This document shows, one piece after another, positions 11,238 to 50,633 of a stretch of 64,000 bases of DNA. A program made the translations under genes and the position numbers. Numbering within the stretch: position 1 is the first letter of the stretch; each line of letters starts with the position of its first letter. This DNA comes from Candidatus Babeliales bacterium (GTDB lineage: Bacteria; Babelota; Babeliae; Babelales; JANWKD01): contig CAVXJH010000007.1 in the NCBI GenBank assembly GCA_963762115.1, forward strand, positions 32,001 to 96,000, read 5' to 3'. Below the pieces are notes generated by a model. It saw only the letters and a program-made list of their open reading frames with translations. It was not told the DNA's origin and ran no database searches.

Positions 11238-12701
11238 TTATTCGGCAATATTGGTTGTAAAGTTAATTGGCGTCAATGGCGTTGGTGAAATTGCAACGTT
11301 AGAAACATTAACAAAATCACCTCCCTTATTATTGCTGGCAAAATTACTATAAATATGATTATTTACCCCAAGATTATTGATACCAATATTGTTATTAGTA
11401 AGTGTATTCTCACGGACCTGACAGTTAGAACTTGTCGTATTAACTGATAATGCCGCGGCTAACAAAATTCCGTTAGTAACATTGCCTTGTGCTATACAAT
11501 TGAGCAGAACATTATTATTACCATTAATTTGAAAACCATTGGTATTATTATTTGCTTTGCATTCTTCAAGCGTTATATCATTGCCTGCAATTTGAAAGCC
11601 ATTTGTCGTATTATCATGAGCAAAATTTTGTATAAAATTCACATTAGCACTTGTGCCATTACTTGGTGCAATAATAAAACCAGTCTGATTTTCATGAGCA
11701 GTACATTGTTGAAAAGCACTCTCAATAAGAAAATTATTTATAAAACCGGGCCCTGTGTTACTATTTGCCGTACAATTTAAAAACTGAAAGGCGATATTCC
11801 CTGTTGTTGAAAATCCTGTGACGTTATTATTGCTAATACACGAATCAATAATAACATTTGTGTTTTGATTAAGTATAAAACCAGTGGCTGAACAAAAATA
11901 TGCTTCATTTTTTAATAAAACAACATCGATTGCACTGGTTATCGACATACCATTTCTATTATTAAAAAAGGTAACATTTTGTACCCCGATATTTTGTGGC
12001 ACCCGGCCCGTTGAAGTATTATTAGCAATTGTTATGCCATTATTTGTCATATTACGAATAGTACCATTTTTGATAAGAATATTTGGAAAACCATTTACCA
12101 CAATACCGGTCGTATTTGTTGTTCCTATACCAATAATCTCATTACCATTAAGATCGATAACCACATCATTACTATTAACGGTAATTGCTCTAATTTGAAA
12201 ATCACTTACGGTGATATTTTGGCCATTAGTTTGTTGTTGCACAACGGCTTGTTGCTGCTGAACAGTAAGATTTTGTTGTTGCTGTATAAGATGGCCGTTT
12301 ACTATGGTAAACGGTGTTGTTTGTAATGATGGTTGCACAATTTGAAATGTGCTCTGTCCCGTCGTATTTATTGGATTAATCTGATTAAAGCTAACAGAAT
12401 TTTGTATTGACGAAGTAGCATTTTGACCATTTTGCAATGCATTTAATGTTGTCTGAGCAGCAATACAATAATAGCCAGGCGTTGAAATCACAAAAGGAAT
12501 ATTAAATTGTGTTATTTGCGTTTGAAATAAACAACCTCTTGTTTGCGGCAGTCCATCGCCTTCAACACTTTTTTGATATTCAATAATATTGTGTATAATT
12601 TTTTGTTCAAAATCATCACTATTGAGCTCATATTCAGCATATAAACCATAAGAAATAAAAAAAAGAATGTATGATAAGAAACAATAGAAAAATTTTAACA
12701 T
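11238..12701 (-). CDS. Secreted right-handed parallel beta-helix repeat protein
   Basis: ISTPGYYCI, VVIDLNG, repeated CxAxxNxxGF coils; signal peptide. Confidence 0.8.
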   Translation of the reverse strand: MLKFFYCFLSYILFFISYGLYAEYELNSDDFEQKIIHNIIEYQKSVEGDGLPQTRGCLFQTQITQFNIPFVISTPGYYCIAAQTTLNALQNGQNATSSIQNSVSFNQINPINTTGQSTFQIVQPSLQTTPFTIVNGHLIQQQQNLTVQQQQAVVQQQTNGQNITVSDFQIRAITVNSNDVVIDLNGNEIIGIGTTNTTGIVVNGFPNILIKNGTIRNMTNNGITIANNTSTGRVPQNIGVQNVTFFNNRNGMSITSAIDVVLLKNEAYFCSATGFILNQNTNVIIDSCISNNNVTGFSTTGNIAFQFLNCTANSNTGPGFINNFLIESAFQQCTAHENQTGFIIAPSNGTSANVNFIQNFAHDNTTNGFQIAGNDITLEECKANNNTNGFQINGNNNVLLNCIAQGNVTNGILLAAALSVNTTSSNCQVRENTLTNNNIGINNLGVNNHIYSNFASNNKGGDFVNVSNVAISPTPLTPINFTTNIAE

Positions 12702-12761: not shown

Positions 12762-13655
12762 TTATACAATATTTTGTGCTTGTTCTCTTATTTTCTCAAG
12801 TTCAATCTTAATCGAAATCGCATGAGTACTGATTATGGCATCAGAACATTTTGCAGCAATAGTATTAATTTCGCGCATAAGTTCTTGCAAGGTAAAATCA
12901 ATACGTCGTCCTTTTTCAATTTCTTTTGAACTAATCATAGTCTTTAATGCCAGCAAATGACTTTTAAACCGAACAATTTCTTCATGAATATCCATGCGTT
13001 CTAATTCATAAAAAAGCTGGTTGCGCTTAAGTTCAACAACATCCGGCTGTTGTTGATCCAACTCAATCAATTTTGCTGCAATCATAGTTTTACGTTGCTC
13101 AAACAGATTTGTTGCTGCATGTTCAATAATCATAAGTTGATCAGCAAGAATAGCACCTCTCACTTCAATATCTTTTTCTAGAGAACGACCTTCAACTTCC
13201 TGAGCATCAATCAACTCACCAATTAATTGGTGAACAATAGTTATTATTTGTTGTTTTGTTGATTCCTCAATATTTACTTCTGCTTCAGAAAAAATATTAG
13301 GCAAACTAAGAAGTTCGGCAAGCGTGAGATTGCCCTCAACGTTAAAAGTTTCTTGTATATGCTTAATTGCAGTAAGATAACTCTGAATAATATGCGTTGC
13401 TGGTTCAACGGGACCTTTAAATATAGTGGGATTTTGCATCGCAATATTAAAAGTGATTTTCCCGCGATACAAAAGATCCTTAAATAACTTAATAAGCTCA
13501 ACTTCCATAGATTGCATAGCATAAGGAATTTTACACGTAGCTTCAAAATAACGTGAATTTAACGATTTCAGTGTTAACGAAAGATAGGCTTTATTACCAT
13601 CATGCAGAGGCAATTCAACAACTTTATTGGAAAAACCTGTCATACTTCGTATCAC
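12762..13655 (-). CDS. yicC: YicC/YloC family endoribonuclease
   Basis: MIRSMTGF, KSLNSRY, DIHEEIVRF, GRRIDF..QELMREINT, KIREQAQNI. Confidence 0.92.
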   Translation of the reverse strand: MIRSMTGFSNKVVELPLHDGNKAYLSLTLKSLNSRYFEATCKIPYAMQSMEVELIKLFKDLLYRGKITFNIAMQNPTIFKGPVEPATHIIQSYLTAIKHIQETFNVEGNLTLAELLSLPNIFSEAEVNIEESTKQQIITIVHQLIGELIDAQEVEGRSLEKDIEVRGAILADQLMIIEHAATNLFEQRKTMIAAKLIELDQQQPDVVELKRNQLFYELERMDIHEEIVRFKSHLLALKTMISSKEIEKGRRIDFTLQELMREINTIAAKCSDAIISTHAISIKIELEKIREQAQNIV

Positions 13656-13658
13656 GTA

Positions 13659-14381
13659 TTATCCTTCTGTTACCAAGTTAGTATACACATTCTTAACATC
13701 TTCATGATCTTCAAGACTACTCAAAAATTCATACGCTTTTTCTTCTTGTTCAGCTGAAAGTGCTACCGTATTTTGTGCAACCCATTCAATGTCAGCTTTT
13801 TCGACCTTTAACCCATTCTCCTGCAAAAGAGTTTTTACCTTTTCCAAAGATTTTGGATCACAAGTGATACTAAAAACCTCCTCATCAAAGGAAATATCTT
13901 TAATATCATAATCAAGCAACAGCTCAAGTAAAGCATCTTCTGAAGTTTTACCACTCACTTGAACAACACCCATACGAGCAAACATCCACCCAACTGAACC
14001 TGTTTCGGCAAGAGATCCGCCACTACTTAAAAATATTCTTCTTAATTCAGCAACAGTTCTATTTTTATTGTCGGTCAATGCATCAATAACAACAGCAGTG
14101 CCAAATGGCCCATAGCCTTCATACATGTGCTCTTCATATTGCATTCCTGGCATTTCACCAGTGCCACGCTTAATAGCACGCACGGTGTTATCCATCGGCA
14201 TATTAATTTCTTTTGCCTTATCAAGCAATAATCTCAAGCGAGAGTTGGCATTTGGATCACCACCGCCAAGGCGTGCCGCCACGGTGATTTCTTTAATTAA
14301 TTTAGTAAATTCTTTACCGCGCTTAGAATCTAATGACGCTTTTTTTCTTTTTATGGTTGCCCATTTGGAATGTCCTGACAT
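13659..14381 (-). CDS. yebC: YebC/PmpR family protein
   Basis: MSGHSKWATIKRKK, YEGYGP, TDNKNRT. Confidence 0.95.
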   Translation of the reverse strand: MSGHSKWATIKRKKASLDSKRGKEFTKLIKEITVAARLGGGDPNANSRLRLLLDKAKEINMPMDNTVRAIKRGTGEMPGMQYEEHMYEGYGPFGTAVVIDALTDNKNRTVAELRRIFLSSGGSLAETGSVGWMFARMGVVQVSGKTSEDALLELLLDYDIKDISFDEEVFSITCDPKSLEKVKTLLQENGLKVEKADIEWVAQNTVALSAEQEEKAYEFLSSLEDHEDVKNVYTNLVTEG

Positions 14382-14389
14382 ATTTGCTC

Positions 14390-15415
14390 CTAGAAGTTTA
14401 ACAATGTCTTTTGACCAAAAAACTTTTGCTTTAAAAAAGGTAACATTTTATGAGGAATCTGTCGACCGCGGGCAGTTTTTTCTAAATATCCCTGGCGCAT
14501 TAAAAATGGCTCATATACTTCTTCAAGCGTTTCTTTATCTTCACCCAACAAGGCCGCCAACGTTTCCAAGCCAACGGGCCCACCATTAAAATTTTCAACC
14601 ATTTTTCTCAAGATCATTATATCAACCGTACTTAACCCATCCTCATTAATACCTAGAAATTCCAAAGCCTGTATCACTAAAGCATCTGTTGCTTGATTAA
14701 GGTTAGTAACCTGAGCAAAATCACGTACTCTGCGTAGAATCTTTTTTGCCGTTCTTGGCGTTCCTCGTGAAGATTTGGCAATAAGCAACGCTGCTTGCGG
14801 AGAAACAATCAAATCAAGAAAAACAGCATTTTGTAAAACAATTTTTTGCAATTCATCATCAGTATAAAAATCAAGTCGCTCAACAATACCAAAACGACTC
14901 CGCAATGGCGCCGAAAGCATACCACTTTTTGTTGTTGCGCCAATCAACGTAAAAGGATGAATGGGTAAATTGATCGATTTTGCCCCTGCACCCTGACCGA
15001 TAATGACATCAACACGAAAATGTTCCATGGCACTATATAATACTTCTTCAACATTGGTGGGCATACGGTGAATTTCATCAACAAAAAAAATATCACGCGG
15101 TTCTAAACTTGTTAACAAAGCAACCAGATCACCGGTACGCTCAAGCATAGGACCACTACAAATTTTTATACCAACACCCATCACCTGCGCCATAATTTGG
15201 GAAAGCGTTGTTTTCCCCAAGCCTGGAGGCCCAAAAAGCAACAAATGATCAAGTGCTTCCCCGCGCATTTTGGCTGCCTGCGTATACACACTTAATTTTT
15301 TCTTTAGTTCTTCTTGTCCCAAATATTCATCAAATGATTTGGGCACAAAATTGTGCAATTGTTCTTCGGGTGTCTCTTGTTGCAACAAGAGACTAATTGA
15401 GTTTATTTCATGCAT
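14390..15415 (-). CDS. ruvB: Holliday junction branch migration helicase RuvB
   Basis: GPPGLGKTT, DEIHR, GATT, SRGTPR, YEPFL. Confidence 0.97.
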   Translation of the reverse strand: MHEINSISLLLQQETPEEQLHNFVPKSFDEYLGQEELKKKLSVYTQAAKMRGEALDHLLLFGPPGLGKTTLSQIMAQVMGVGIKICSGPMLERTGDLVALLTSLEPRDIFFVDEIHRMPTNVEEVLYSAMEHFRVDVIIGQGAGAKSINLPIHPFTLIGATTKSGMLSAPLRSRFGIVERLDFYTDDELQKIVLQNAVFLDLIVSPQAALLIAKSSRGTPRTAKKILRRVRDFAQVTNLNQATDALVIQALEFLGINEDGLSTVDIMILRKMVENFNGGPVGLETLAALLGEDKETLEEVYEPFLMRQGYLEKTARGRQIPHKMLPFLKQKFFGQKTLLNF

Positions 15416-15632
15416 TATAATAACTATTTTATGTATTGAGTAATAATAACTGGTTCGATGTTATTTTTAATATGATCAAATCTAATTTTTTTTCATAATA
15501 AAGTCTATTGATCAACATTATAAATGCGACAATCACTCTATTTTTCTCTGTTCAAAAAACTGGTATTATAAGCAAAATTAACTTATTATAAATATTATTT
15601 TTTTATAGTATTTCTTACAAAGGAAAATATAT

Positions 15633-16214
15633 ATGTATTTTAAAAAATCAATCTTCACCTTATTTTTAACAATTTCTATTTTCAGTACAACGTATGCCAT
15701 GGACCTAATATCAAAAGAAACTTTGCAAGATAAAATTATCACACCAGCAATTATCTTAGGAATCGGTGCAGCAAGTGGTGCTGCTCAAGCGATAATTATG
15801 AATAAAATAAATACACATTATCATGCTAAAAACCATTGGAACATTTCTAAAAATGCCATCTTGGGAGCTTTATTTGCAATACCCGCAACAGTCATAGCAA
15901 CGGCAGAGATAGACTCTTTGCCAAAGTTAGATAATGAAGGCATCATTTGGTCCGTCGCATCTTCAACTACTTACAAAATGATAATATGCATGGGTCATTA
16001 TTATTTTATAAAAAAAGCTTTCATCGAGCAGAACAACTTTTTTAATACGCCCGAAGCAAGAAAAAATCGAAAAACAACTAACGATCTTCAAGCTTCCAAT
16101 TTTTTTCAAAGTAAGAGCAAGCATCACTCTGCGGCCATTTTTTTTCTCAATCCAACGATATCAATTGTATCAACCTTTTTGACGGCATCAATACGCAATA
16201 ATCTCGATCATTAA
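15633..16214 (+). CDS. Hypothetical secreted/membrane protein
   Basis: AAGGA RBS, signal peptide TTYA|MD, hydrophobic segments. Confidence 0.65.
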   Translation: MYFKKSIFTLFLTISIFSTTYAMDLISKETLQDKIITPAIILGIGAASGAAQAIIMNKINTHYHAKNHWNISKNAILGALFAIPATVIATAEIDSLPKLDNEGIIWSVASSTTYKMIICMGHYYFIKKAFIEQNNFFNTPEARKNRKTTNDLQASNFFQSKSKHHSAAIFFLNPTISIVSTFLTASIRNNLDH

Positions 16215-16279
16215 ACCCCTAAGCCCATATCAAACTTTCCCATAGCAATACCATGTAACCAGCCAAAGCTGACAAGCAT
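16211..16279 (-). repeat. Diverged copy B of the rodA 3' end
   Basis: 47/57 nt identical, ungapped, to 17849-17905; reads MLVSFGWLHGIAMGKFDMGLGV*. Confidence 0.85.
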
Positions 16280-16296
16280 TAACCCAATAAGATGCT

Positions 16297-17091
16297 TTAT
16301 CCATTCACTGAAATAAATGGAACCATTTTCCCGGTAACGCGAGGCAAAACACCATCCCATTTTTCTATTGCCTTAAATTGCGCTTCAATTTCTTGTAGAC
16401 GAATCAATTCTAACGTTACTGATTCTTTTTTGACTTGCAATGAGAACGCTTCCGCTTCAGCGCGAGCTCGCGTCTGCAATGCTTCTTCTTGCACTTTTAC
16501 GGTTAAATTTTTCGCCGTTTTTGCACTTTGTTCTGCAATTTGCTTATCTTCAACTGCTTTAATAAAATCGGGAGAAAAATCAAGATGAATAAAATTGAAA
16601 TCAATTAAATCTAAATAACGAGGCGCTAACCGTTCTTTTAATTCATTAATAACTTTCTCTTTTGCTTCGTGTCGACTTTGAATAAGATCTTCTGCCGTAA
16701 ATTTGGCAATAACAGCTTTTACACTTTCCTGAGTAAATGGATCAATAATAACCCGATCAAAATGTATTCCGATTTCTTGATATAATTTTAATACATCGCT
16801 AATTCTATAATTGATAACCATACCAACCGAAACAGTTTGTAAGTCACGTGACATACCTTTTGTTTCAATTGCCGCCTTATTAATTTGTGTGTTAATTTTA
16901 ATGATAGAATCAATAAGAGGAATTTTATAATAAAATCCTGATATGTTTTCTGTACTAATTACTCTGCCCAACCGCAATTGAATGGCGGTAAAACCAGGTT
17001 CAATGGTATAAAATGATAAAGGTAAAAGAAAAAAAACCAGAGAGATTATTGCCAACAAGATAAGAGTGAATGCAGTACGAATATAATTCAT
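16297..17091 (-). CDS. SPFH/prohibitin (band 7) family membrane protein
   Basis: N-terminal TM; SRDLQTV, FTAEDLI..R, FSPDFIKAVEDKQIAEQ, KWDGVLP. Confidence 0.9.
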   Translation of the reverse strand: MNYIRTAFTLILLAIISLVFFLLPLSFYTIEPGFTAIQLRLGRVISTENISGFYYKIPLIDSIIKINTQINKAAIETKGMSRDLQTVSVGMVINYRISDVLKLYQEIGIHFDRVIIDPFTQESVKAVIAKFTAEDLIQSRHEAKEKVINELKERLAPRYLDLIDFNFIHLDFSPDFIKAVEDKQIAEQSAKTAKNLTVKVQEEALQTRARAEAEAFSLQVKKESVTLELIRLQEIEAQFKAIEKWDGVLPRVTGKMVPFISVNG

Positions 17092-17170
17092 GTAACAATA
17101 CTTTCGATGAGACTTTTAGAAATTAATTAAGATACTATAAGTATAAATATATACCTGAAATGCACAACAA

Positions 17171-17236
17171 TTAAACACCTACCCCCCTATCAAACCTTCG
17201 CATGGCAATACCATTCAACCACCCCAAATTGCCCAT
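17171..17236 (-). repeat. Diverged copy A of the rodA 3' end
   Basis: 49/57 nt identical, ungapped, to 17849-17905; reads MGNLGWLNGIAMRRFDRGVGV*. Confidence 0.9.
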
Positions 17237-17312
17237 TTGCACTAATTGCATAAATTCATCATACTAAATAAGTAATTATATTTTAATAAGCACATTCATA
17301 CTAGAGAAAAAT

Positions 17313-17852
17313 TTGAATATTTATCTATCAAAAAAGCTATTATTATTGCTATTATCTTTATCCCTCAATCTATTCTGTCTTTTACCCATAGATTCCCGTT
17401 TTTCCTTACAAACATTTAATAAAGAATCAGATAAAAATTGGATCATTAAGTTATTTAATGCAAATTATGAACACCTAGTTGATCAAAATGCTAAAGATTT
17501 TTCAATTGAATGGACATTAGACAATCTAAGGCTTTTTCCAGAGTATAAAGAAAAATTAATTATAAAAACTGCCACTATTAAAACTATTCCTGCTGGCTTT
17601 ATAGCTTATTCTATAGACAATAAAAATAGAGGTAACATCGATATGCTTTGTATTGATTCCCAATGGCGTAGAAATGGATGTGGCTTCAAATTATTAAATT
17701 ACGCCGTAGAAGATTTAAAGCAAAAAGGTATTTCAAAAATAAAATTAGGGGTTACGAACATAGCTGCTCAAAAATTATATGAAAAATATGGTTTTAAAAA
17801 AAAGAAAAAATGGCCATATGGTGATTCTATTATTATGGTCTTATCTCTTTAA
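17313..17852 (+). CDS. GNAT family N-acetyltransferase with signal-peptide-like N-terminus
   Basis: LCIDSQWRRNGCGFKLL acetyl-CoA motif A; NIAAQKLYEKYGF. Confidence 0.85.
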   Translation: MNIYLSKKLLLLLLSLSLNLFCLLPIDSRFSLQTFNKESDKNWIIKLFNANYEHLVDQNAKDFSIEWTLDNLRLFPEYKEKLIIKTATIKTIPAGFIAYSIDNKNRGNIDMLCIDSQWRRNGCGFKLLNYAVEDLKQKGISKIKLGVTNIAAQKLYEKYGFKKKKKWPYGDSIIMVLSL

Positions 17853-18961
17853 ACACCCACCCCCATATCAAACCTCCGCATAGCAATACCATTTAACCAA
17901 CCAAGACTCGCAAAATTAATCCAAAGATTGGTGATTCCATAACTAATAAAGGGAAGCGGTATACCAACAATGGGCAATAAACCAATTACCATGCCAATAT
18001 TAATAAATGCCGAAAGAACAATATGCAAAAGCAATCCCACTGCCAATAATTGAGCACTAATATTTTGTATACTCATAATGACCCAACACAATCGCCAAAA
18101 TAATCCTATAAATAATAATAAAAGACCGAGTGCCCCAACAAAGCCAAATTCTTCACCAATCACTGAAAAAATAAAATCAGTTCTACTTTCGGGCAAGAAC
18201 ATAAACTTATTCTGTGTTCCCTCAAGAAAGCCCTTACCAAATAAACCGCCTGAACCAATAGCAATTTTTGATTGTTCAATCTGATAACGCTCTTTATACA
18301 TTTCACCCTGACCCAAAAATACAGCAATTCGTTTTTGTTGATACGGCTTCAAAAAATGCCACGTTATAGGTGTTGTCATCAAAACAGCAAAAAAGAGATA
18401 TATAAAAAATTTTTGCGGCATTCCCACAAACCAGATCATTAAAAAACCGGAAATAAGAACAATGAGAGCAGTTCCTAAATCCGGTTGTTTTAAAATTAAT
18501 AAAAAGCTTACGCCTAATATGGTTAAAATGGGTAAAAATTCTTTAAATGCCACTTTAGGGAAATTCTTCTGGGTATAAAAGTAATAGGTAATATAAGCAG
18601 GCAAAAATAGCTTTGCCAATTCTGAAGGCTGAAATTTAATAAAAAACAGGTTTATCCAACGCTGAGCCCCCATTCCTACACTACCTTTAATTAAGGTAAA
18701 CAGAAGAAGCCCAATGACCACCCAATACAAAAAATACCCCCATCGACATAAAACACGGTAATCAATACCACAAAAAGCAAAATAAATCCCCAGCCCTGAT
18801 AAAATGCCAAGAGCCTGCTTTTTAAAGAATAATGAATAAGGTTGACCTGTTTTATAGGTAGCACTATAAATTAAGATAAGGCCTATTCCTGATAAAAAAC
18901 AGGTTAAAACAAAGCTAAGCCAGTCAAAATAGCGCAAATAGCGCTGATCAATCAAAAACAT
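17849..18961 (-). CDS. rodA: Rod shape-determining SEDS protein RodA
   Basis: GAQRWI, FQPSELAK, KQPDLGTA, FLPESRTDFIF, GIPLPFISYG. Confidence 0.95.
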   Translation of the reverse strand: MFLIDQRYLRYFDWLSFVLTCFLSGIGLILIYSATYKTGQPYSLFFKKQALGILSGLGIYFAFCGIDYRVLCRWGYFLYWVVIGLLLFTLIKGSVGMGAQRWINLFFIKFQPSELAKLFLPAYITYYFYTQKNFPKVAFKEFLPILTILGVSFLLILKQPDLGTALIVLISGFLMIWFVGMPQKFFIYLFFAVLMTTPITWHFLKPYQQKRIAVFLGQGEMYKERYQIEQSKIAIGSGGLFGKGFLEGTQNKFMFLPESRTDFIFSVIGEEFGFVGALGLLLLFIGLFWRLCWVIMSIQNISAQLLAVGLLLHIVLSAFINIGMVIGLLPIVGIPLPFISYGITNLWINFASLGWLNGIAMRRFDMGVGV

Positions 18962-19066
18962 GGGTATTCCTCATAAAACAGCATACAAATTGTAGTTAAA
19001 AAATAGATAATTTTAAGAAATTTGTCATGTATAAAGACAAAAGCCAATTTTAATTAAATAATCTAT

Positions 19067-19095
19067 TTGACAATATTTAAAATTAAGAATATGAT
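19067..19095 (+). promoter_or_regulatory. Sigma70-type promoter
   Basis: TTGACA-N17-TATGAT upstream of the GAGGAG RBS of the 19135 ORF. Confidence 0.7.
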
Positions 19096-19134
19096 TCTTT
19101 ATAGTAATACGCTTTAAAATATCGAGGAGAAGCC

Positions 19135-20859
19135 ATGTTTAAGCAAATATATATAAAAATGTTTTCAATTTGCATTATAGCAGCCTTAACAACTCAAAGT
19201 TTTGGCATGTTCATACTTACAAAAAAATTACATAAAAAAAACTGTGCATACGTTATGTATAGACAATCACAAAATGAAGAACAAGCAACAGTATCATCTC
19301 ATGCAAATAACCAAGAAACACTCTTTTCGGAAAAAGAAACTGATGCTCCTTTGGAAGCCTTAACAAGTTCCTCTGAAGAATCTGAAGAAACGGTGCAATC
19401 GAAAAGTATTTTTTCACGATTACTCGATTATTTTACCCCCGTACCAGCAACCGTAGAAGTTAACTCACACATTTATAATGGAAACAAAATTGAAATGTCT
19501 GAAAACCGTTGCATAAAACAAATCTATGTAACGAATCAATTTGGTACTCATGGTGGTGGCGATGCAAGTTGTGGCTATCAATCATTGAAAAATGCTATTT
19601 ATCTTATAAAGGCATTACAAGAATCTAGCACAACAGAGAGTTTAAATAACGATTTGAATAATCTTACTATTATCAATACTTTATTTGGACCAGTGCACAA
19701 AAACTCTGTCGGCACTTGGCGTGCAATCATCATGCAAAAGCGTGCTTTAATAGTATTCAAAAATTATATTTATCAACGCTTAGAACTTAAAAAATTAGAT
19801 GAAATACAAGAAAATACCTGTATACAATTTGAAAGCAAAAAACGTTTTCTTCTGAATAAAAGTAAAATTCGTGAGGTCTTTGCGACCTTACTCAATAAAT
19901 ATGCTCAAGAAGCAGCAGAAGCATTAACAAATGGCCAAACAACACAATTATATATTAATCCTGAACTTATCATTGAATATATTCAAAATAATTTAAATCC
20001 TGAAGTTATACAAGATCCTCAGGAATTTATAGAAGAAAGCTCCATTTGCTTAGATGAGAATCCAAGCATTGAATGTCATGACCTTGATGAACTATTTGGT
20101 TTATTATATACCTACCTCCGAGAAAACAACACCATTGACACCTATATTAACCTTTCGTCAATAAAAACATTTGAGCTCTCCCTTGATAATTCAAAAGAGG
20201 CTTTTGATCTCTATAATAATAACAACTCAAATCCATCACAATTGGATGGTGATTGGCTCCAAGAAGAAGAAATTTATGCCTTAAAAAATCTTGAAGCAGC
20301 AGACAACATTCATTGTATGAAAGAAAGCAGAAATGGCCTATTGCATGGACTTGATTACAAGTTCACCATTATTGAAGATGTTAACGATTTAACCGGCACA
20401 CATGGTGACACTATTAATCACGAAATTTTCCAAGAAATAGAACTCAAATCACAAAAAGGTATTAATAAAGCAAAAACTGCCTTAGCAGCAGATGAAATAA
20501 AAAAATATATCCATGCTTTTATTGTAGGAACTGCTGACAGATCTCGATCAACTCATGGTCATTGGTTTGTGTTACTGCTTTATAAGCATGACAATATGCA
20601 TGAATATATTGTTATGGATTCAGCCAATAACGCAAATCGCTTATATGACGAACGGGTGAAAAAAATTATTTCGCTACTAGAAAATCAAGATTTAACGGAT
20701 AAAATTGTCGCATCACCTGAAGAATTAAAAGAACTTGAAAATAAAATTAGAACTAAAGTTGCTGAACATGATTTGGAAGCACTTGATCTTATTGAAAACT
20801 ATAAACAATGTGGTGGAACAATTGATTTTTCTGAAGAAACACAAGCATTATTCTCATAA
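19135..20859 (+). CDS. Secreted protein with putative cysteine protease (ubiquitin/Ubl-protease-like) triad
   Basis: Signal peptide; NQF..DASCGYQSLKN, GDWLQEEEI, GHWFVLLL, VMDS motifs. Confidence 0.6.
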   Translation: MFKQIYIKMFSICIIAALTTQSFGMFILTKKLHKKNCAYVMYRQSQNEEQATVSSHANNQETLFSEKETDAPLEALTSSSEESEETVQSKSIFSRLLDYFTPVPATVEVNSHIYNGNKIEMSENRCIKQIYVTNQFGTHGGGDASCGYQSLKNAIYLIKALQESSTTESLNNDLNNLTIINTLFGPVHKNSVGTWRAIIMQKRALIVFKNYIYQRLELKKLDEIQENTCIQFESKKRFLLNKSKIREVFATLLNKYAQEAAEALTNGQTTQLYINPELIIEYIQNNLNPEVIQDPQEFIEESSICLDENPSIECHDLDELFGLLYTYLRENNTIDTYINLSSIKTFELSLDNSKEAFDLYNNNNSNPSQLDGDWLQEEEIYALKNLEAADNIHCMKESRNGLLHGLDYKFTIIEDVNDLTGTHGDTINHEIFQEIELKSQKGINKAKTALAADEIKKYIHAFIVGTADRSRSTHGHWFVLLLYKHDNMHEYIVMDSANNANRLYDERVKKIISLLENQDLTDKIVASPEELKELENKIRTKVAEHDLEALDLIENYKQCGGTIDFSEETQALFS

Positions 20860-20947: not shown

Positions 20948-21784
20948 TTAAAAAATCTTATAATGACACACTTCTTCTAATTCTTGGATAATTTTTTCAA
21001 TAACTATTAAAGGCAACCGAAACTGCTTAAGCATAGTAGGTTTTCTCAAAAGATCTCGACACAAAACATATCCTTTTTGAATAAGAATTCTCTTTTGTCG
21101 ATTATTAAGCGATGTTAAAACAGTAACAGGATATAATGCATACTTATCGATAAGTTCCGCTAAATTGTTTTTTAAAGGGTATGACCATGCGAGTAACTTC
21201 ATATCTACACATTGAGCATACGCAATTGCTTCAGTGGTAAAATTAGTATTGGTAATAAGCATTTTTTGAACATGTTTTTTTTCAGGAAATTGTTCAATTA
21301 TTTTTTTTTGAATATCATCAAAACGAGATTTAAAATAAAGAGGAACTTTGCTATCAGATTTCAAACCCTGGCGATTATGAAATTTACATTCACCCACCAT
21401 TATAGTTACGTCTTTAGTAGCAATAAGATCAATTTCATGACTTATACAACTTCCCTGAACAAATTTTCTTGTTTGGGTTATATAACCTTGATGCAAAAAT
21501 AATTGAGCAATAAAATCTTCAAATGGATATCCCGAAGGACCCAACTGAATTAAAGCATTTTTTAAACTATAACGAGCGGCAATAGAAGGTTTTTCTTGTT
21601 GCAAAGCATTAAATGCATATTTATAAATTTCATGAGTAGTCTTGAGCTCAGTATTTTTTTCAATACTCTCAATTAATGAATCAATTACTAATGGATCAGC
21701 ACCAGATTTTTCTAATGATCTTCTAAATTTTTGAGCATTAAATTCTTGAAGTTCACCGGATGCTTTTTTGATAATTTTTTTCAT
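20948..21784 (-). CDS. ATP-cone domain plus PD-(D/E)xK restriction-endonuclease-like protein
   Basis: IKKASGELQEFNAQKFRRSL (ATP cone); GYPFEDFIA, HEIDLIA...ECKFH (Mrr-like nuclease). Confidence 0.8.
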   Translation of the reverse strand: MKKIIKKASGELQEFNAQKFRRSLEKSGADPLVIDSLIESIEKNTELKTTHEIYKYAFNALQQEKPSIAARYSLKNALIQLGPSGYPFEDFIAQLFLHQGYITQTRKFVQGSCISHEIDLIATKDVTIMVGECKFHNRQGLKSDSKVPLYFKSRFDDIQKKIIEQFPEKKHVQKMLITNTNFTTEAIAYAQCVDMKLLAWSYPLKNNLAELIDKYALYPVTVLTSLNNRQKRILIQKGYVLCRDLLRKPTMLKQFRLPLIVIEKIIQELEEVCHYKIF

Positions 21785-21866
21785 AGGTTCAATCAAAAAT
21801 TTTTTAATTTTTATAACTGAACATAAGCTTCACTTGATTAGCCCTATAAAGTCAACACAATAATTC

Positions 21867-23004: not shown

Positions 23005-23247
23005 TTATTCTTTGTCGTCGCACGTATCATTAAAATCAATTTTGAAATTAATTTTTTTTTGTTTAATTTTTTGTACAAAACCAAATTTAGTTTCAAAAAG
23101 CATAATAAGACCGCAATAAACCAGAATACTACCCAAAACTATTTTAAAGATTGGAATATCTAGGTTAAAAATAGCTTTCAATAATACCGTAATACCCAAG
23201 AGTAATAACAGCACACCGGCCAAAAAATTTCCATCCAAAAAATTCAT
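23005..23247 (-). CDS. Small two-TM membrane protein
   Basis: ATG at 23247 (MNFLDG...); the longer ORF call runs into tRNA-His. Confidence 0.6.
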   Translation of the reverse strand: MNFLDGNFLAGVLLLLLGITVLLKAIFNLDIPIFKIVLGSILVYCGLIMLFETKFGFVQKIKQKKINFKIDFNDTCDDKE

Positions 23248-23264
23248 AGAAAGCCCCAAAAAAA

Positions 23265-23341
23265 TGGGGTGAGTGGTGGGGCTCGAACCCACGACCCTCA
23301 GAGCCACAACCTGATGCTCTACCAACTGAGCTACACTCACC
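23265..23341 (-). tRNA. tRNA-His(GTG)
   Basis: Encoded G-1, TCAGG-TTGTGGC-TCTGA anticodon arm, GGTTCGAG, CCA end. Confidence 0.97.
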
Positions 23342-23506
23342 ATAAATTATTTTAATTGCTTTTAAATGTACTGTTTTTTACGTCAAATTGCAACCACTGC
23401 TTTATTTTAATGTATACATCAGGCAACCTTGTCTGTCTGAAGCCCTCATGCTACACTAAAAGCCTTCAATAGAGGAACTTTTAATAAACAATGGTAAAAA
23501 GCTACA

Positions 23507-47783: not shown

Positions 47784-49400
47784 ATGCAAAATTCTTGGGT
47801 CGTGCTCATACCACCACTTCTTGTTCTTACTGCAGCTTTTGTTACTAAACGAGTATTGCTTTCACTCTGCTTGGGTATAATAACCGCTTGTTTTATCATA
47901 GCTGATCTTTCAGTGATCCATGCGGGATCCATTCTGATACAAAACTTGCAAAAACAGATATTCAATACTGACAATATATATACGTTTATCTTTCTTATTG
48001 CCTTAGGTTCTCTCATAGCATTATTAAGCCACACCGGCGGCACCACTGCCTATAGCACAATCATGGCCAAAAAAATTTCTGATGCAAAAAGTGCTGAATC
48101 AGCAAGCCTACTTTTATCATGCTTGTTGTTATTTGATGATTTTTTTAGCAGCATTACCGTTGGTTGCATTATGCGCCCACTCACCGATCGCTTTAAAATC
48201 CCCCGAGCAAAATTAGCTTTTTTAATTGATTCAATGGCAGCCCCTTTGGTTGTTCTTATTCCTGTTTCAAGTTGGATCGCCACCCTCACCATGCAACTGC
48301 ACAAATCTGGCATATCGCAAGATTTATCTGATAACCCTTTAATTCTTGCTGATCCATTTTCATTATATTTGCACATTATTCCTTATATTTTTTACTCATT
48401 TATTATTATGGCATCTGTTTTATTTATTGTACGCAAACGCATTTCTTTTGGACCCATGCACAAACAAGAAGCAATTGCACAAAAAACGGGCAATCTTTAT
48501 GGCGGTAAAAAACCATCAAAAAATATCGATAAAAATTACTGCCCTGTTGATCATGGTTCATTAATCGATTTCTTTTTACCAATTGGCTTATTATTATTCT
48601 CAGTATTTTCAGCAATTTTATATGCTGGCAAGTATCATCTTTTTGGCGGCAATCATTCATTATTAAAAGCATTAGCATCAACTGACATTTTTTTTGCGCT
48701 CTGCACCGGCACCGTATTTACGCTGATTACCAGTTTTATATTTTTTTTGATTAAGAAAAAAATGCATTTAAAAGATATTTTATCATTAATCAAAGAAGGC
48801 GTTCAACTTATGGGTCCTTCTGTTGCTATTTTATTCTTTGCTTGGACATTCAGCAGCTTGCTTATTCATGATTTAAAAAGCGGTTCTTATTTGGCTTCGC
48901 TCGTTGTTGGCAATATCATACTCCCTTTATTGCCGTGCATTTTTTTCATAGTGTCAGCAATTACTTCGATTGCAATTGGTTCATCGTGGGGCACTATTGC
49001 CGTTATGGTCCCTTTAGCAACACCAATGCTTATACAATTACTCGGCATACAAACGCCCGCAACACCCGAACAGGTATATTTATTATTGCCTTTGCTTGGT
49101 GCTGCTTTTGCTGGTGCAATTGCCGGCGATCATATTTCGCCAATTTCCAGCACAACAGTTATGTCCTCAACCAGCAGCGGTGCATATCACACTGATCATG
49201 TGTATACACAATTTATGTATGCCTTACCAGCGTTAATTGCCACCATTATTGCCTATCTTATTGCCGGCTTTCTTGCAACTTACAGTAATGCTTTAAGTTT
49301 AATCGCATTACCAATTGGCATTATTTTGTCTTTAAGCATGCTTTATATAGTGAATATAATTGCTCATAAAAATGGCTCCAAAGCCGCCAAAATTGACTAA
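47784..49400 (+). CDS. Na+/H+ antiporter NhaC-family / ion-transporter superfamily membrane protein
   Basis: FDDFF, RAKLAFLIDSMAAP, GSSWGT, GDHISPIS; multiple TMs. Confidence 0.85.
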   Translation: MQNSWVVLIPPLLVLTAAFVTKRVLLSLCLGIITACFIIADLSVIHAGSILIQNLQKQIFNTDNIYTFIFLIALGSLIALLSHTGGTTAYSTIMAKKISDAKSAESASLLLSCLLLFDDFFSSITVGCIMRPLTDRFKIPRAKLAFLIDSMAAPLVVLIPVSSWIATLTMQLHKSGISQDLSDNPLILADPFSLYLHIIPYIFYSFIIMASVLFIVRKRISFGPMHKQEAIAQKTGNLYGGKKPSKNIDKNYCPVDHGSLIDFFLPIGLLLFSVFSAILYAGKYHLFGGNHSLLKALASTDIFFALCTGTVFTLITSFIFFLIKKKMHLKDILSLIKEGVQLMGPSVAILFFAWTFSSLLIHDLKSGSYLASLVVGNIILPLLPCIFFIVSAITSIAIGSSWGTIAVMVPLATPMLIQLLGIQTPATPEQVYLLLPLLGAAFAGAIAGDHISPISSTTVMSSTSSGAYHTDHVYTQFMYALPALIATIIAYLIAGFLATYSNALSLIALPIGIILSLSMLYIVNIIAHKNGSKAAKID

Positions 49401-49462
49401 TTTTAGTGATTCTTTATGATTAATAATGTTATATTGTCTTTTTTTCTAAGCTGAGGTTTTTT

Positions 49463-49903
49463 ATGAAAAAGCTTATTTTACCTTTGTTGATCTTATCAAG
49501 TAATTTGTTTGCTGATTTTCCTGAAGTAGCTAAAGAAGCTGATACACCTTGTGCACCTGAGGCATTTGCTGCAAATTATGACGGTGAAAGCATAAAACTT
49601 ATTAATGAATGTATCCGTCACGAGAACACGAACGCTTGTAGATTATTAGAAGTGCTTACTGAATTACAACAAGTTGAAGGCAAAATGCGATCACAAGGCA
49701 TAAGTACTCGTGTTGTACCAGCACTATCAAAATGCTTAAGTACTGATCCAGGAAATGCAACACATGAATGTAAAGCAGTAAAACTAGCACTGAGATGGCA
49801 TATGCTTTATAGTGAACTTAACAACAATCAACAATTTAAGCATTTTTCTAGATATTCGTTTCAAGATGATTTATTAAAACACACCAAAAAAGCTACAAAA
49901 TAA
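49463..49903 (+). CDS. Hypothetical secreted Cys-containing protein (paralog 1)
   Basis: GAGG RBS, signal peptide ending LFA. Confidence 0.75.
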   Translation: MKKLILPLLILSSNLFADFPEVAKEADTPCAPEAFAANYDGESIKLINECIRHENTNACRLLEVLTELQQVEGKMRSQGISTRVVPALSKCLSTDPGNATHECKAVKLALRWHMLYSELNNNQQFKHFSRYSFQDDLLKHTKKATK

Positions 49904-49923
49904 CTCAATCAATGAGTATTGCT

Positions 49924-49960
49924 AAATCGGGAATTAAGTAAATAATTCCCGATTTTTTTT
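49924..49960 (+). terminator. Rho-independent terminator
   Basis: AAATCGGGAATTA-agtaaa-TAATTCCCGATTT followed by a T-run. Confidence 0.85.
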
Positions 49961-50146
49961 GCACAAAAATGCCTTCTTATAAATATCTTTTTCCAATTGG
50001 AATTTTATTGTCTTTAAGCATGTTTTATATAGTGAATATAATTGCTCAAAAAAAATGATTCCAAAGCCGCCAAATTTGACTAATTTTGGCGATTCTCTAT
50101 GATTAATAATGCTATAATGTCTTTTTTTTCTAAATTGAGGTCTTTT

Positions 50147-50485
50147 ATGAAAAAGCTTATTTTACCCTTATTATTACTAGTATCTGGTAGTTTGTTTGCA
50201 GAACATACCCTTAATGATCACATTCAAAAGCATCATGCAACACCAGCTCAATGCGAAACGTGCCAAGAAACTTCGTTGTTAAAAGAATGTGTACAAGGAA
50301 ACAACAAAGCTTGCAAAACGTTGTTACTAAAAGCATACCAACGTCATTTTAATACTAACGAAGCAGTAGTACTCACTCTATTTCTTAAAGATCAAATACT
50401 AGAAAATATAAAACGAAAAAAAGCTGTCTCTGACGCCATTTCCCCAAATGAATCACTACCTACAATGGACCAATCAGACAAATAA
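50147..50485 (+). CDS. Hypothetical secreted Cys-containing protein (paralog 2)
   Basis: Start at 50147 by homology to paralog 1 (GAGG RBS, MKKLILPLL...LFA). Confidence 0.75.
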   Translation: MKKLILPLLLLVSGSLFAEHTLNDHIQKHHATPAQCETCQETSLLKECVQGNNKACKTLLLKAYQRHFNTNEAVVLTLFLKDQILENIKRKKAVSDAISPNESLPTMDQSDK

Positions 50486-50507
50486 TCATTCACTTATAAA
50501 ACTTGCT

Positions 50508-50545
50508 AAATCGGGAATTATTTACTTAATTCCCGATTTTTTTTT
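50508..50545 (+). terminator. Rho-independent terminator
   Basis: AAATCGGGAATTA-tttact-TAATTCCCGATTT followed by a T-run. Confidence 0.85.
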
Positions 50546-50633
50546 GCACAAAAATACCTTTTTCTAATCATCTTTTTCCTATATACTTTCATCAATTGAT
50601 AATGCACAAACAAAACATTGAAAGTAAATTTTT

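What the first reader, a model, noticed from the sequence alone, without database searches (positions are those of the whole stretch)
15633..17905. Cassette-like array at the rodA 3' end: accessory genes separated by diverged, in-frame rodA-tail copies
Seen: the last 19 codons of rodA (LGWLNGIAMRRFDMGVGV*) recur ungapped at 17171-17227 (49/57 nt; 7 of 8 changes synonymous; 17/18 aa identical) and at 16211-16267 (47/57 nt; 13/18 aa). The order going downstream is rodA, GNAT, tail A, SPFH, tail B, hypothetical, ruvB. The convergent GNAT and hypothetical genes both end in the TTAA overlapping a rodA or tail stop. Established: elements that integrate into a gene 3' end carry a replacement tail and displace the old one. 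Inference: the synonymous bias means tail A evolved as coding rodA, and the farther copy is the more diverged. This fits sequential single-gene capture about 60 nt before the rodA stop. No integrase lies in the window, so capture would need a trans-acting recombinase or homology-driven acquisition.
Basis: partly seen in the sequence, partly recalled or inferred. Interest (0 to 1): 0.8.

Follow-up and report, generated by a model that had tools for sequence, protein, structure and literature searches.

The report
Stranded gene ends mark gene capture
In an uncultivated Babeliales bacterium, two extra genes sit behind the cell-shape gene rodA, each followed by a leftover copy of rodA's last ~20 codons, and the same scar lies behind about 15 other genes; this likely records how the lineage picks up neighbouring genes from relatives by homologous recombination, without an integrase.

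Summary
Observation confirmed exactly: tail A 49/57 nt, tail B 47/57; chance ceiling 34/57. The organism is a Candidatus Babeliales bacterium. Relatives lack the inserts: L241 has rodA-ruvB, G001 has rodA-hypothetical-ruvB. Two genes (GNAT, SPFH) were therefore added; the hypothetical is likely the older neighbour. The pattern is genome-wide: 16 curated sites here, 9 in G001, 0 of 1137 genes in non-Babeliales controls. Across 29 copies, the shared stretch starts 34-210 nt before the stop, 17 end within 7 nt after it, and pN/pS is 0.17, so most behave as foreign alleles rather than local duplicates. There is no fixed site and no integrase in the cassettes. At several sites the insert is the homologous interval of a relative. 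Best reading: a donor fragment carrying gene tail plus neighbour integrates additively through the tail, likely by circularisation and single crossover (shown in E. coli). It works like the published 'insertion with long target duplication', without restriction-modification cargo. The scan noted this kind of scar before in other genomes. Reads were not examined; the route of DNA entry is untested.

The parts
17849..18961 (-). rodA, the anchor gene (370 aa); its last 57-85 nt are the duplicated segment
   Evidence: PF01098; TIGR02210 346.7 bits against cut-off 336.7
17313..17852 (+). GNAT acetyltransferase, inferred latest cargo; convergent, its stop overlaps the rodA stop (TTAA); 27% GC; start codon uncertain
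   Evidence: PF00583; no match at E<=1e-25 in 260 other Babeliales genomes; only itself in the protein database at E<=1e-20; GC
17171..17227 (-). tail A: displaced copy of the last 19 codons of rodA, in frame to its own TAA
   Evidence: 49/57 nt, 7 of 8 changes synonymous
16297..17091 (-). SPFH/band-7 gene, inferred earlier cargo; its stop lies about 10 nt from the start of tail B
   Evidence: PF01145; best relative among 261 genomes is G004 (79%), also in the rodA-ruvB interval
16211..16287 (-). tail B: older displaced rodA end (77 nt gapped; 57 nt ungapped core 16211-16267); ends DMGLGV like the functional RodA of L241
   Evidence: 47/57 nt; 77 nt at 79%; allele comparison
15633..16214 (+). 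hypothetical 193-aa gene, convergent, stop overlaps the tail-B stop; inferred former rodA neighbour
   Evidence: orthologue (37-38%) between rodA and ruvB in G001, the only other genome of 261 with a match
14390..15415 (-). ruvB, conserved downstream flank
   Evidence: PF05496; 98 nt behind rodA in L241
47784..49400 (+). second site in the window: Na+/H+ antiporter family gene (anchor)
   Evidence: PF03553; flanking orthologues adjacent in G001
49463..49903 (+). 146-aa gene between the antiporter and its displaced tail; shares its leader and flanks with the next gene (50099-50485)
   Evidence: no Pfam hit
49990..50083 (+). displaced, frameshifted copy of the antiporter 3' end (similarity continues about 39 nt past the stop)
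   Evidence: 94 nt at 89%

Best explanation
The GNAT and SPFH genes lie between rodA and two leftover copies of rodA's 3' end, likely because two DNA fragments from related Babeliales, each carrying the end of the donor's rodA plus the donor's next gene, were added one after the other by homologous recombination through that short tail. Inferred steps: (1) a chromosomal fragment of a relative enters the cell, possibly by competence; (2) its two ends join (the most likely route), making a circle whose only useful homology is the 35-210-nt tail; (3) a single crossover in the tail inserts the whole piece, restores a complete rodA and pushes the previous end and its neighbour downstream; (4) short, diverged repeats are poor substrates for the reverse reaction and persist. 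Similarity stops at the stop codon because donor and recipient differ from there on. No dedicated recombinase is needed, and the same process acts at many genes. Shown: the anatomy, the empty sites, the allele-like divergence, the variable joints, the same-locus origin of cargo at several other sites. Inferred: the order of events, the circle, the crossover and the entry route.
For: Empty sites: L241 (RodA 89%, RuvB 95%) has rodA-98 nt-ruvB; G001 has rodA-hypothetical-ruvB without tails. Genome-wide: 13 of 599 core genes in G000 and 7 of 601 in G001 have a same-strand downstream tail copy, against 1 and 2 for internal pieces, which make up most of the gene length; 0 of 1137 genes in 78 non-Babeliales loci. 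Allelic origin: 29 copies, 150.5 synonymous and 102.5 non-synonymous changes, pN/pS 0.17; synonymous share 0.595 against 0.35-0.46 expected if a local duplicate decayed neutrally (p 2e-15 to 2e-5 for transition bias 1-8). Same-locus donors: at gpsA the piece runs gpsA tail-neighbour-relic of the next core gene, matching the G001 order, and is joined with 1 nt of overlap; cargo has its G001 orthologue at the same locus at gpsA, truA, tamB and aspS; in G004 a 57-nt copy of the SPFH start lies 75 nt behind the rodA stop, so rodA-SPFH adjacency existed in a relative. Joints are variable (-34 to -210) with 0-5 nt overlap by eye. RecA, ComEC and DprA are encoded. In E. coli, linear DNA with one homologous end gave partial duplications in 56 of 60 clones (109-950 bp in the 14 sequenced) by recircularisation and single crossover, ten times more often than HFIR (PMC3240628).
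Against: No donor for GNAT was found, and neither rodA joint has a matching flank elsewhere, so same-locus origin at rodA rests on the G004 relic and the stop overlaps. A circle model predicts gene-start duplications as often as gene-end ones. Core genes show 20 tails against 5 head hits, several of them spurious, although heads and tails are equally conserved (0.69 vs 0.70); upstream-region duplicates (9 and 5 hits, several ambiguous) explain this only in part. At Maf, aspS, the MurB-like gene, the antiporter and the 312-aa gene, the cargo or its flank has a homologue in the same locus, which local tandem duplication also gives. Six copies at less conserved genes show no synonymous excess (28 vs 40). 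Competence genes are present but uptake is untested in this lineage. Closest relatives are only about 82% identical, too far to show the predicted mosaic tails.
Confidence: 0.68

Rival explanations
1. Local tandem duplication of [gene tail + neighbour + flank], followed by replacement or fast divergence of one copy of the neighbour; no foreign allele of the tail is involved.
For: Cargo or flanks are homologous within the locus at 5-6 of 16 G000 sites; the genome has many tandem paralogue arrays; the antiporter site in this window looks like a duplicated unit with 2.5 synonymous and 5.5 non-synonymous changes.
Against: At rodA the three genes are unrelated. Pooled synonymous excess rejects neutral decay of local copies. 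At Maf the first cargo continues about 90 nt beyond the point where the second is joined to its tail, which needs a second source. Tail B shares a residue with a functional allele of a relative.
Confidence: 0.13
2. A trans-acting site-specific or programmable recombinase (Xer-like, large serine or IS110 type) integrates circular cassettes that carry a replacement tail, as phages do at gene 3' ends.
For: The anatomy equals attL/attR with a replacement tail (established knowledge, recalled). The genome encodes 2 large serine recombinases and 5 IS110 copies. Two tamB copies share a 30-nt left flank.
Against: Only two tyrosine recombinases, of XerC/XerD size; the serine recombinases lie beside tRNA genes; none is inside a cassette. 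The 24 target ends share no visible motif and the joint differs between copies at one gene.
Confidence: 0.08
3. One-ended, homology-facilitated illegitimate recombination of linear DNA, with the illegitimate joint made upstream of the end of homology, or a break-repair template switch giving the same product. Same donor logic as the best explanation but without a circle; part of the 0.68 above (about a third of it) could belong here.
For: Same-locus donors and sharp joints; proposed for stacked immunity genes in Vibrio cholerae (PMC5361080); DprA and ComEC present.
Against: Described HFIR products generally delete recipient DNA and mostly show 3-10 bp microhomology (PMC3240628 introduction); here there is duplication with 0-5 nt. 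No link to replication direction: 13 of 25 anchors lie on the G-rich strand against 54.5% of G001 genes.
Confidence: 0.07
4. Assembly chimera of co-occurring strains, or tails kept by selection as small peptides or spare C-termini.
For: The genome is incomplete and not from a named isolate (7 contigs, 95% complete, 3% contamination); reads were not examined. Tail A has in-frame ATGs 22 and 26 codons before its stop.
Against: Copies differ by 3-24% with unique joints; the pattern recurs in G001, G004, L242 and others; several copies carry stops or frameshifts.
Confidence: 0.04

Closest known systems
Insertion with long target duplication (Furuta, Abe and Kobayashi 2010, PMC2853133, passages read; the first description, Nobusato et al. 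2000, was not seen and is named from earlier scan notes)
   Same: A few genes inserted without integrase or transposase, flanked by direct repeats over 30 bp that are single in an empty-site genome; mostly in naturally competent species; two published repeats touch gene 3' ends.
   Different: Defined there for restriction-modification cargo, with near-identical repeats in the Table 2 rows seen (43-47 of 45-47 bp) and an unexplained, break-linked mechanism. Here the cargo is GNAT, SPFH and other genes, the repeats are coding 3' ends differing like alleles, they stack, and there are 16 sites in one genome.
Single-crossover integration of recircularised linear DNA in E. coli (PMC3240628; passages and Discussion read)
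   Same: One-ended homology gives an insertion flanked by a partial duplication of the homologous gene (109-950 bp), more often than HFIR.
   Different: Laboratory plasmid conjugation in E. coli; the authors suggest competent species may avoid circularisation. No circle was shown here, and lengths here are shorter (34-210 nt).
Sequential displacement in Vibrio cholerae T6SS immunity arrays and Rhs orphan tips (PMC5361080, passages)
   Same: New modules enter at a conserved anchor and push older ones downstream, with no integrase; array members are alleles from other strains.
   Different: There the old effector is deleted and the arrays are one functional class; here nothing is deleted, the anchors are housekeeping genes and the cargo is mixed.
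Integrative elements that enter protein-coding 3' ends with a replacement tail (for example e14 in icd; recalled, also named in an earlier scan note)
   Same: Complete gene upstream, displaced tail downstream of the insert.
   Different: Those encode an integrase and use one fixed site; these cassettes have neither.
Minimal mobile elements of Neisseria (recalled; search listing only)
   Same: Variable genes between conserved flanks exchanged between relatives by homologous recombination.
   Different: As recalled, they replace one another by double crossover and leave no duplicated gene end; here capture is additive.

Membership tests
Insertion with long target duplication (Furuta 2010 criteria) | Insert under 20 kb with no mobile-element genes | tested here: met
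   0.68 and 0.96 kb units holding only GNAT and SPFH
Insertion with long target duplication (Furuta 2010 criteria) | Direct repeat over 30 bp, single in an empty-site genome | tested here: met
   57 and 77 nt repeats; single in L241 and G001
Insertion with long target duplication (Furuta 2010 criteria) | Insert carries restriction and modification genes | tested here: not met
   Pfam and NCBIfam give GNAT and SPFH only; cargo at the other sites was not scanned
Site-specific integrative element in a gene 3' end | Integrase within the element | tested here: not met
   No recombinase in the cassettes; genome hits lie on other contigs
Site-specific integrative element in a gene 3' end | Fixed attachment site and shared core | tested here: not met
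   Joints at about -57 and -77 at rodA, -99/-96/-59 at tamB, -34 to -210 overall; no shared motif by eye
Site-specific integrative element in a gene 3' end | Excised circle made by a recombinase in trans | not testable with these tools
   No reads were examined
Integron cassette array | attC-type imperfect inverted repeat after each cassette | tested here: not met
   None of the 25 longest inverted pairs in 13000-20000 lies within a tail; the separators are coding rodA ends
Integron cassette array | IntI integrase | tested here: inconclusive
   Two PF00589 proteins of 299 and 319 aa on contig C3, far from the array; no IntI-specific profile was run
Homology-facilitated illegitimate recombination | Homologous anchor at one end, abrupt joint at the other | tested here: met
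   gpsA, Maf, hpf and aspS joints; not resolvable at the rodA joints
Homology-facilitated illegitimate recombination | Deletion of recipient DNA of similar size | tested here: not met
   Recipient neighbour retained and tail duplicated; deletion-type events would be invisible to this scan
Homology-facilitated illegitimate recombination | 3-10 bp microhomology at the joint | tested here: inconclusive
   0-5 nt by eye at five joints, read against diverged proxies of the donor
Single-crossover integration of a circularised fragment | Insert flanked by a partial direct duplication of the homologous gene | tested here: met
   29 copies at 24 sites
Single-crossover integration of a circularised fragment | Circular intermediate and mosaic repeats | not testable with these tools
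   Nearest relative is about 82% identical in DNA; no reads examined

The most novel reading that the evidence does not exclude
Gene 3' ends serve as general, integrase-free docking sites in Babeliales: tail-plus-cargo units excise as small circles, pass between co-infecting relatives and re-enter through any copy of the tail, so that stranded tails become handles that let arrays grow by plain homologous recombination. This would be a main route of accessory-gene gain and of the tandem 'paralogue' arrays in these reduced, host-dependent genomes, with a real and unexplained bias to gene ends over gene starts.
Probability: 0.25. Interest if true: 0.75.

Novelty: new variant of a known kind. Interest (0 to 1): 0.5.

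Why it matters
Insertion with long target duplication is described for restriction-modification genes and its mechanism is open. This locus and its 23 analysed sister sites add three testable facts: the repeats are allelic coding ends, the inserts can be the same chromosomal interval of a relative, and about 1-2% of core genes carry the scar in two genomes of one genus. That points to additive homologous capture as an ordinary way for small-genome, host-dependent bacteria to gain genes, and gives a simple scar for counting and ordering such gains. I found no description for Dependentiae or of this gene-end pattern in nine literature searches, which cover open-licence papers only. It is a recombination scar, not a demonstrated new enzyme or element.

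Tried and rejected
Reverse-transcriptase route: no PF00078 match in G000 (genome 95% complete). Replication-direction model: 13 of 25 anchors on the G-rich strand. Faster divergence of gene starts as cause of the tail bias: heads 0.689, tails 0.702 identity over 557 orthologue pairs. Long partial duplicates of core genes: none over 210 nt among 608 and 603 genes. rodA tail copies in relatives: none in 31 Babeliales loci at >=30/45 (ten have under 1.5 kb downstream, and in several ruvB was not reached) nor in L241 or L242 at >=25/36, so tail number could not be correlated with cassette content at rodA. Promoter and terminator scan of 15300-18000: at chance level (13 vs 14.9; 1 vs 1.2). GNAT donor: none found. 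SPFH neighbours in 28 other genomes: none next to rodA or ruvB within 1.5 kb. No tree of tails was built; only pairwise identities over 57 nt. Rows dropped before counting: of 22 raw G000 genes, 8 dropped as paralogue arrays, repeat protein or ambiguous, and Maf and sbcD added, giving 16; of 16 raw G001 genes, 7 dropped as paralogues or spurious ORFs, giving 9; the RsmG site gave no copy, leaving 24 sites and 29 copies. Gene calls are mechanical (longest ORFs), so start codons are uncertain. My working label 'rlmN' was wrong (FAD-binding, MurB-like); 'holA', 'priA' and 'sbcD' are my readings, the last backed only by a metallophosphoesterase hit. PMC6561590 holds no passage on competence or duplication. 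Read-level support and a wider sample of other families remain open.
Full report
Observation. The region reads ruvB (14390-15415, -), hypothetical (15633-16214, +), SPFH (16297-17091, -), GNAT (17313-17852, +), rodA (17849-18961, -). The only long repeat family in 13000-20000 is the three-copy rodA end. Tail A matches 49 of 57 nt with 7 of 8 changes synonymous; tail B matches 47 of 57 with 5 residue changes. The next best match genome-wide is 34 of 57. Tail B extends with gaps to about 77 nt, so the two joints are not at one position. Both TTAA stop overlaps are real.

Organism and empty sites. The nearest named RodA relatives are titled Candidatus Babeliales (79%) and Dependentiae (60%). The closest locus found, L241 (RodA 89%, RuvB 95%), has ruvB 98 nt behind rodA. 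G001 (same genus) has rodA-hypothetical-ruvB, the hypothetical being 37-38% identical to ours. None of 31 Babeliales rodA loci nor L241 or L242 has a rodA tail copy, though the interval holds very different genes. So GNAT and SPFH were added in this lineage. The hypothetical, whose stop overlaps the stop of tail B, is likely the older neighbour (inference; its absence from the closer L241 means loss or exchange also occurred).

The pattern is genome-wide. A scan of all genes against intergenic DNA within 12 kb found same-strand downstream tail copies for 22 of 1328 genes in G000, 16 of 1179 in G001, 1 of 258 in part of G003, 2 of 262 in 18 Babeliales rodA loci and 0 of 1137 in 78 non-Babeliales rodA loci; 4 of 385 in 420 kb of G004, and a 191-nt ruvB tail behind a 522-aa insert in L242. 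The control covers rodA neighbourhoods only, not whole genomes. Restricted to core genes without near paralogues: 13 of 599 and 7 of 601 tails, against 3 and 2 upstream head copies and 1 and 2 downstream internal pieces. After curation (rows dropped are listed under Tried and rejected) 16 G000 and 9 G001 sites remain. Anchors named by Pfam, for G000 through their G001 orthologues, include YdjM, RsmG, Maf, gpsA, a DAO oxidoreductase, truA, tamB, aspS, a Na+/H+ antiporter, gatB, secA, hpf, a HAD hydrolase and a class I tRNA ligase. At 7 of the 16 G000 sites the flanking orthologues are adjacent in G001. A second site lies in this window at 47784-50083.

The copies behave as alleles. Over 29 copies at 24 sites, similarity starts 34-210 nt before the stop (median 81) and ends within 0 to +7 nt of it in 17; pN/pS is 0.17. 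If a local duplicate had decayed neutrally beside a fully constrained gene, 35-46% of changes would be synonymous; 59.5% of 253 are (p 2e-15 to 2e-5; sites are not fully independent). The excess comes from conserved genes (122.5 vs 62.5); six copies at less conserved genes show none (28 vs 40). Tail B ends DMGLGV like the functional RodA of L241. Over 57 nt the tails are 47-49 identical to our rodA, and relatives' alleles 46, so the donors were close and are not among the genomes sampled.

Where the cargo came from. At gpsA the insert consists of the neighbour found at this place in G001, the following intergenic stretch and a 54-nt relic of the next core gene, joined with 1 nt of overlap to position -107 of the old gpsA end; the old neighbour, unrelated and absent from G001, follows. 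At aspS the flank of the tail copies the upstream region of the next core gene. At Maf two related cargo genes end at different points before their tails. For our locus, the best SPFH relative among 261 genomes (30 with a match) is G004 at 79%, higher than RodA between the two (69%), and it lies in the rodA-ruvB interval; a 57-nt copy of the SPFH start sits 75 nt behind the G004 rodA stop, the mirror-image event. In 28 other genomes SPFH is not beside rodA. No GNAT donor was found. At hpf in G001 the cargo has a close copy elsewhere in G000, so not all cargo is shown to be locus-bound.

Machinery. G000 encodes two tyrosine recombinases of XerC/XerD size, two large serine recombinases beside tRNA genes, five IS110 copies, RecA, ComEC and DprA, and no reverse transcriptase (tRNAs). 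None lies in a cassette. Target ends share no visible motif and show no link to replication direction.

Mechanism. The simplest account is additive homologous capture of a donor fragment that begins in the last 35-210 nt of a shared gene and carries the donor's neighbour. In E. coli, such one-ended substrates gave partial duplications in 56 of 60 clones through recircularisation and single crossover, while HFIR as described generally deletes recipient DNA (PMC3240628). I give capture from a relative 0.68 with the circle as the likelier route, local duplication 0.13, a trans-acting recombinase 0.08, a strictly one-ended joint as a separate class 0.07, artefact or selected peptides 0.04. The narrow length range probably reflects a minimum for recombination and loss of longer repeats (inference; none over 210 nt). 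The excess of ends over starts is only partly explained by upstream-region duplicates and remains the oddest feature.

Comparison with the known. It works like insertion with long target duplication (PMC2853133, passages) but fails that class's restriction-modification criterion, and its repeats are diverged coding alleles. It resembles sequential displacement in V. cholerae immunity arrays (PMC5361080, passages). It is not an integron or a site-specific element by the tests run. PMC5426353 (passages) shows a recombinase-free island that excises and integrates between imperfect direct repeats, which keeps the circle reading open. Supplements of these papers were not read. Earlier notes of this scan describe the same scar in other genomes, including behind recA and rodA in a Patescibacteria genome; none concerns this genome. 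I reached the genome-wide, homology-driven reading before seeing them and took the literature label from them.

Verdict. Real, not chance, and not special to rodA: a new variant of a known but unexplained insertion mode, with evidence on donor origin that makes its mechanism testable. Interest 0.5.

Noticed in passing
window 47784-50600: Second displaced-tail site: antiporter, 146-aa gene, tail copy, 128-aa gene. The two small genes share leader, signal-peptide start and 3' flank but not their middles.
   Followed up: partly
L242 4224-4437 relative to the rodA stop: A 191-nt, 95% identical copy of the ruvB 3' end lies behind a 522-aa insert in a relative.
   Followed up: partly
L113 2870-2926: Orphan copy of the SPFH start 75 nt behind rodA in G004, followed by four large genes and then the full SPFH gene: a head-side version of the scar. 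Other head copies: Maf in G001 (609866-609926), sbcC-like gene in G003.
   Followed up: partly
G000 C6:349000-361600: Tandem array of about 12 related ORFs whose junctions (gene end plus next leader) are 80-94% identical while the bodies differ.
   Followed up: no
G000 C3:196786-218995, C3:501997-528035, C3:558363-572727, C5:99899-112676, C6:376541-397102: Families of intergenic, partly palindromic repeats of about 50-200 nt in both orientations, REP- or MITE-like.
   Followed up: no
G000 C5:166500-177600: Gene-poor stretch dense in short repeats in both orientations, with three extra tRNA genes (Asn, Tyr, Arg) and a tRNA-Gly, just beyond a large serine recombinase and tRNA-Glu/Lys.
   Followed up: no
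G000 C6:80577-81283 and L212 2337-3007: A 96-aa plus 142-aa gene pair is cargo at tamB here, sits at the same locus in G001 (84%, 76%) and follows SPFH in G004 (88%, 80%); more conserved than average, possibly a mobile pair.
   Followed up: no
window 23005-23343: This ORF overlaps tRNA-His (C7:55265-55340) and lies next to tRNA-Pro, so its first half is probably not coding.
   Followed up: no
window 20948-21796: ATP-cone plus Mrr-type nuclease domain protein (both weak Pfam hits), conserved upstream of rodA in L241 and L242.
   Followed up: no
window 11238-12701: Beta-helix protein (PF13229) with a glutamine-rich N-terminal stretch, downstream of yicC.
   Followed up: no
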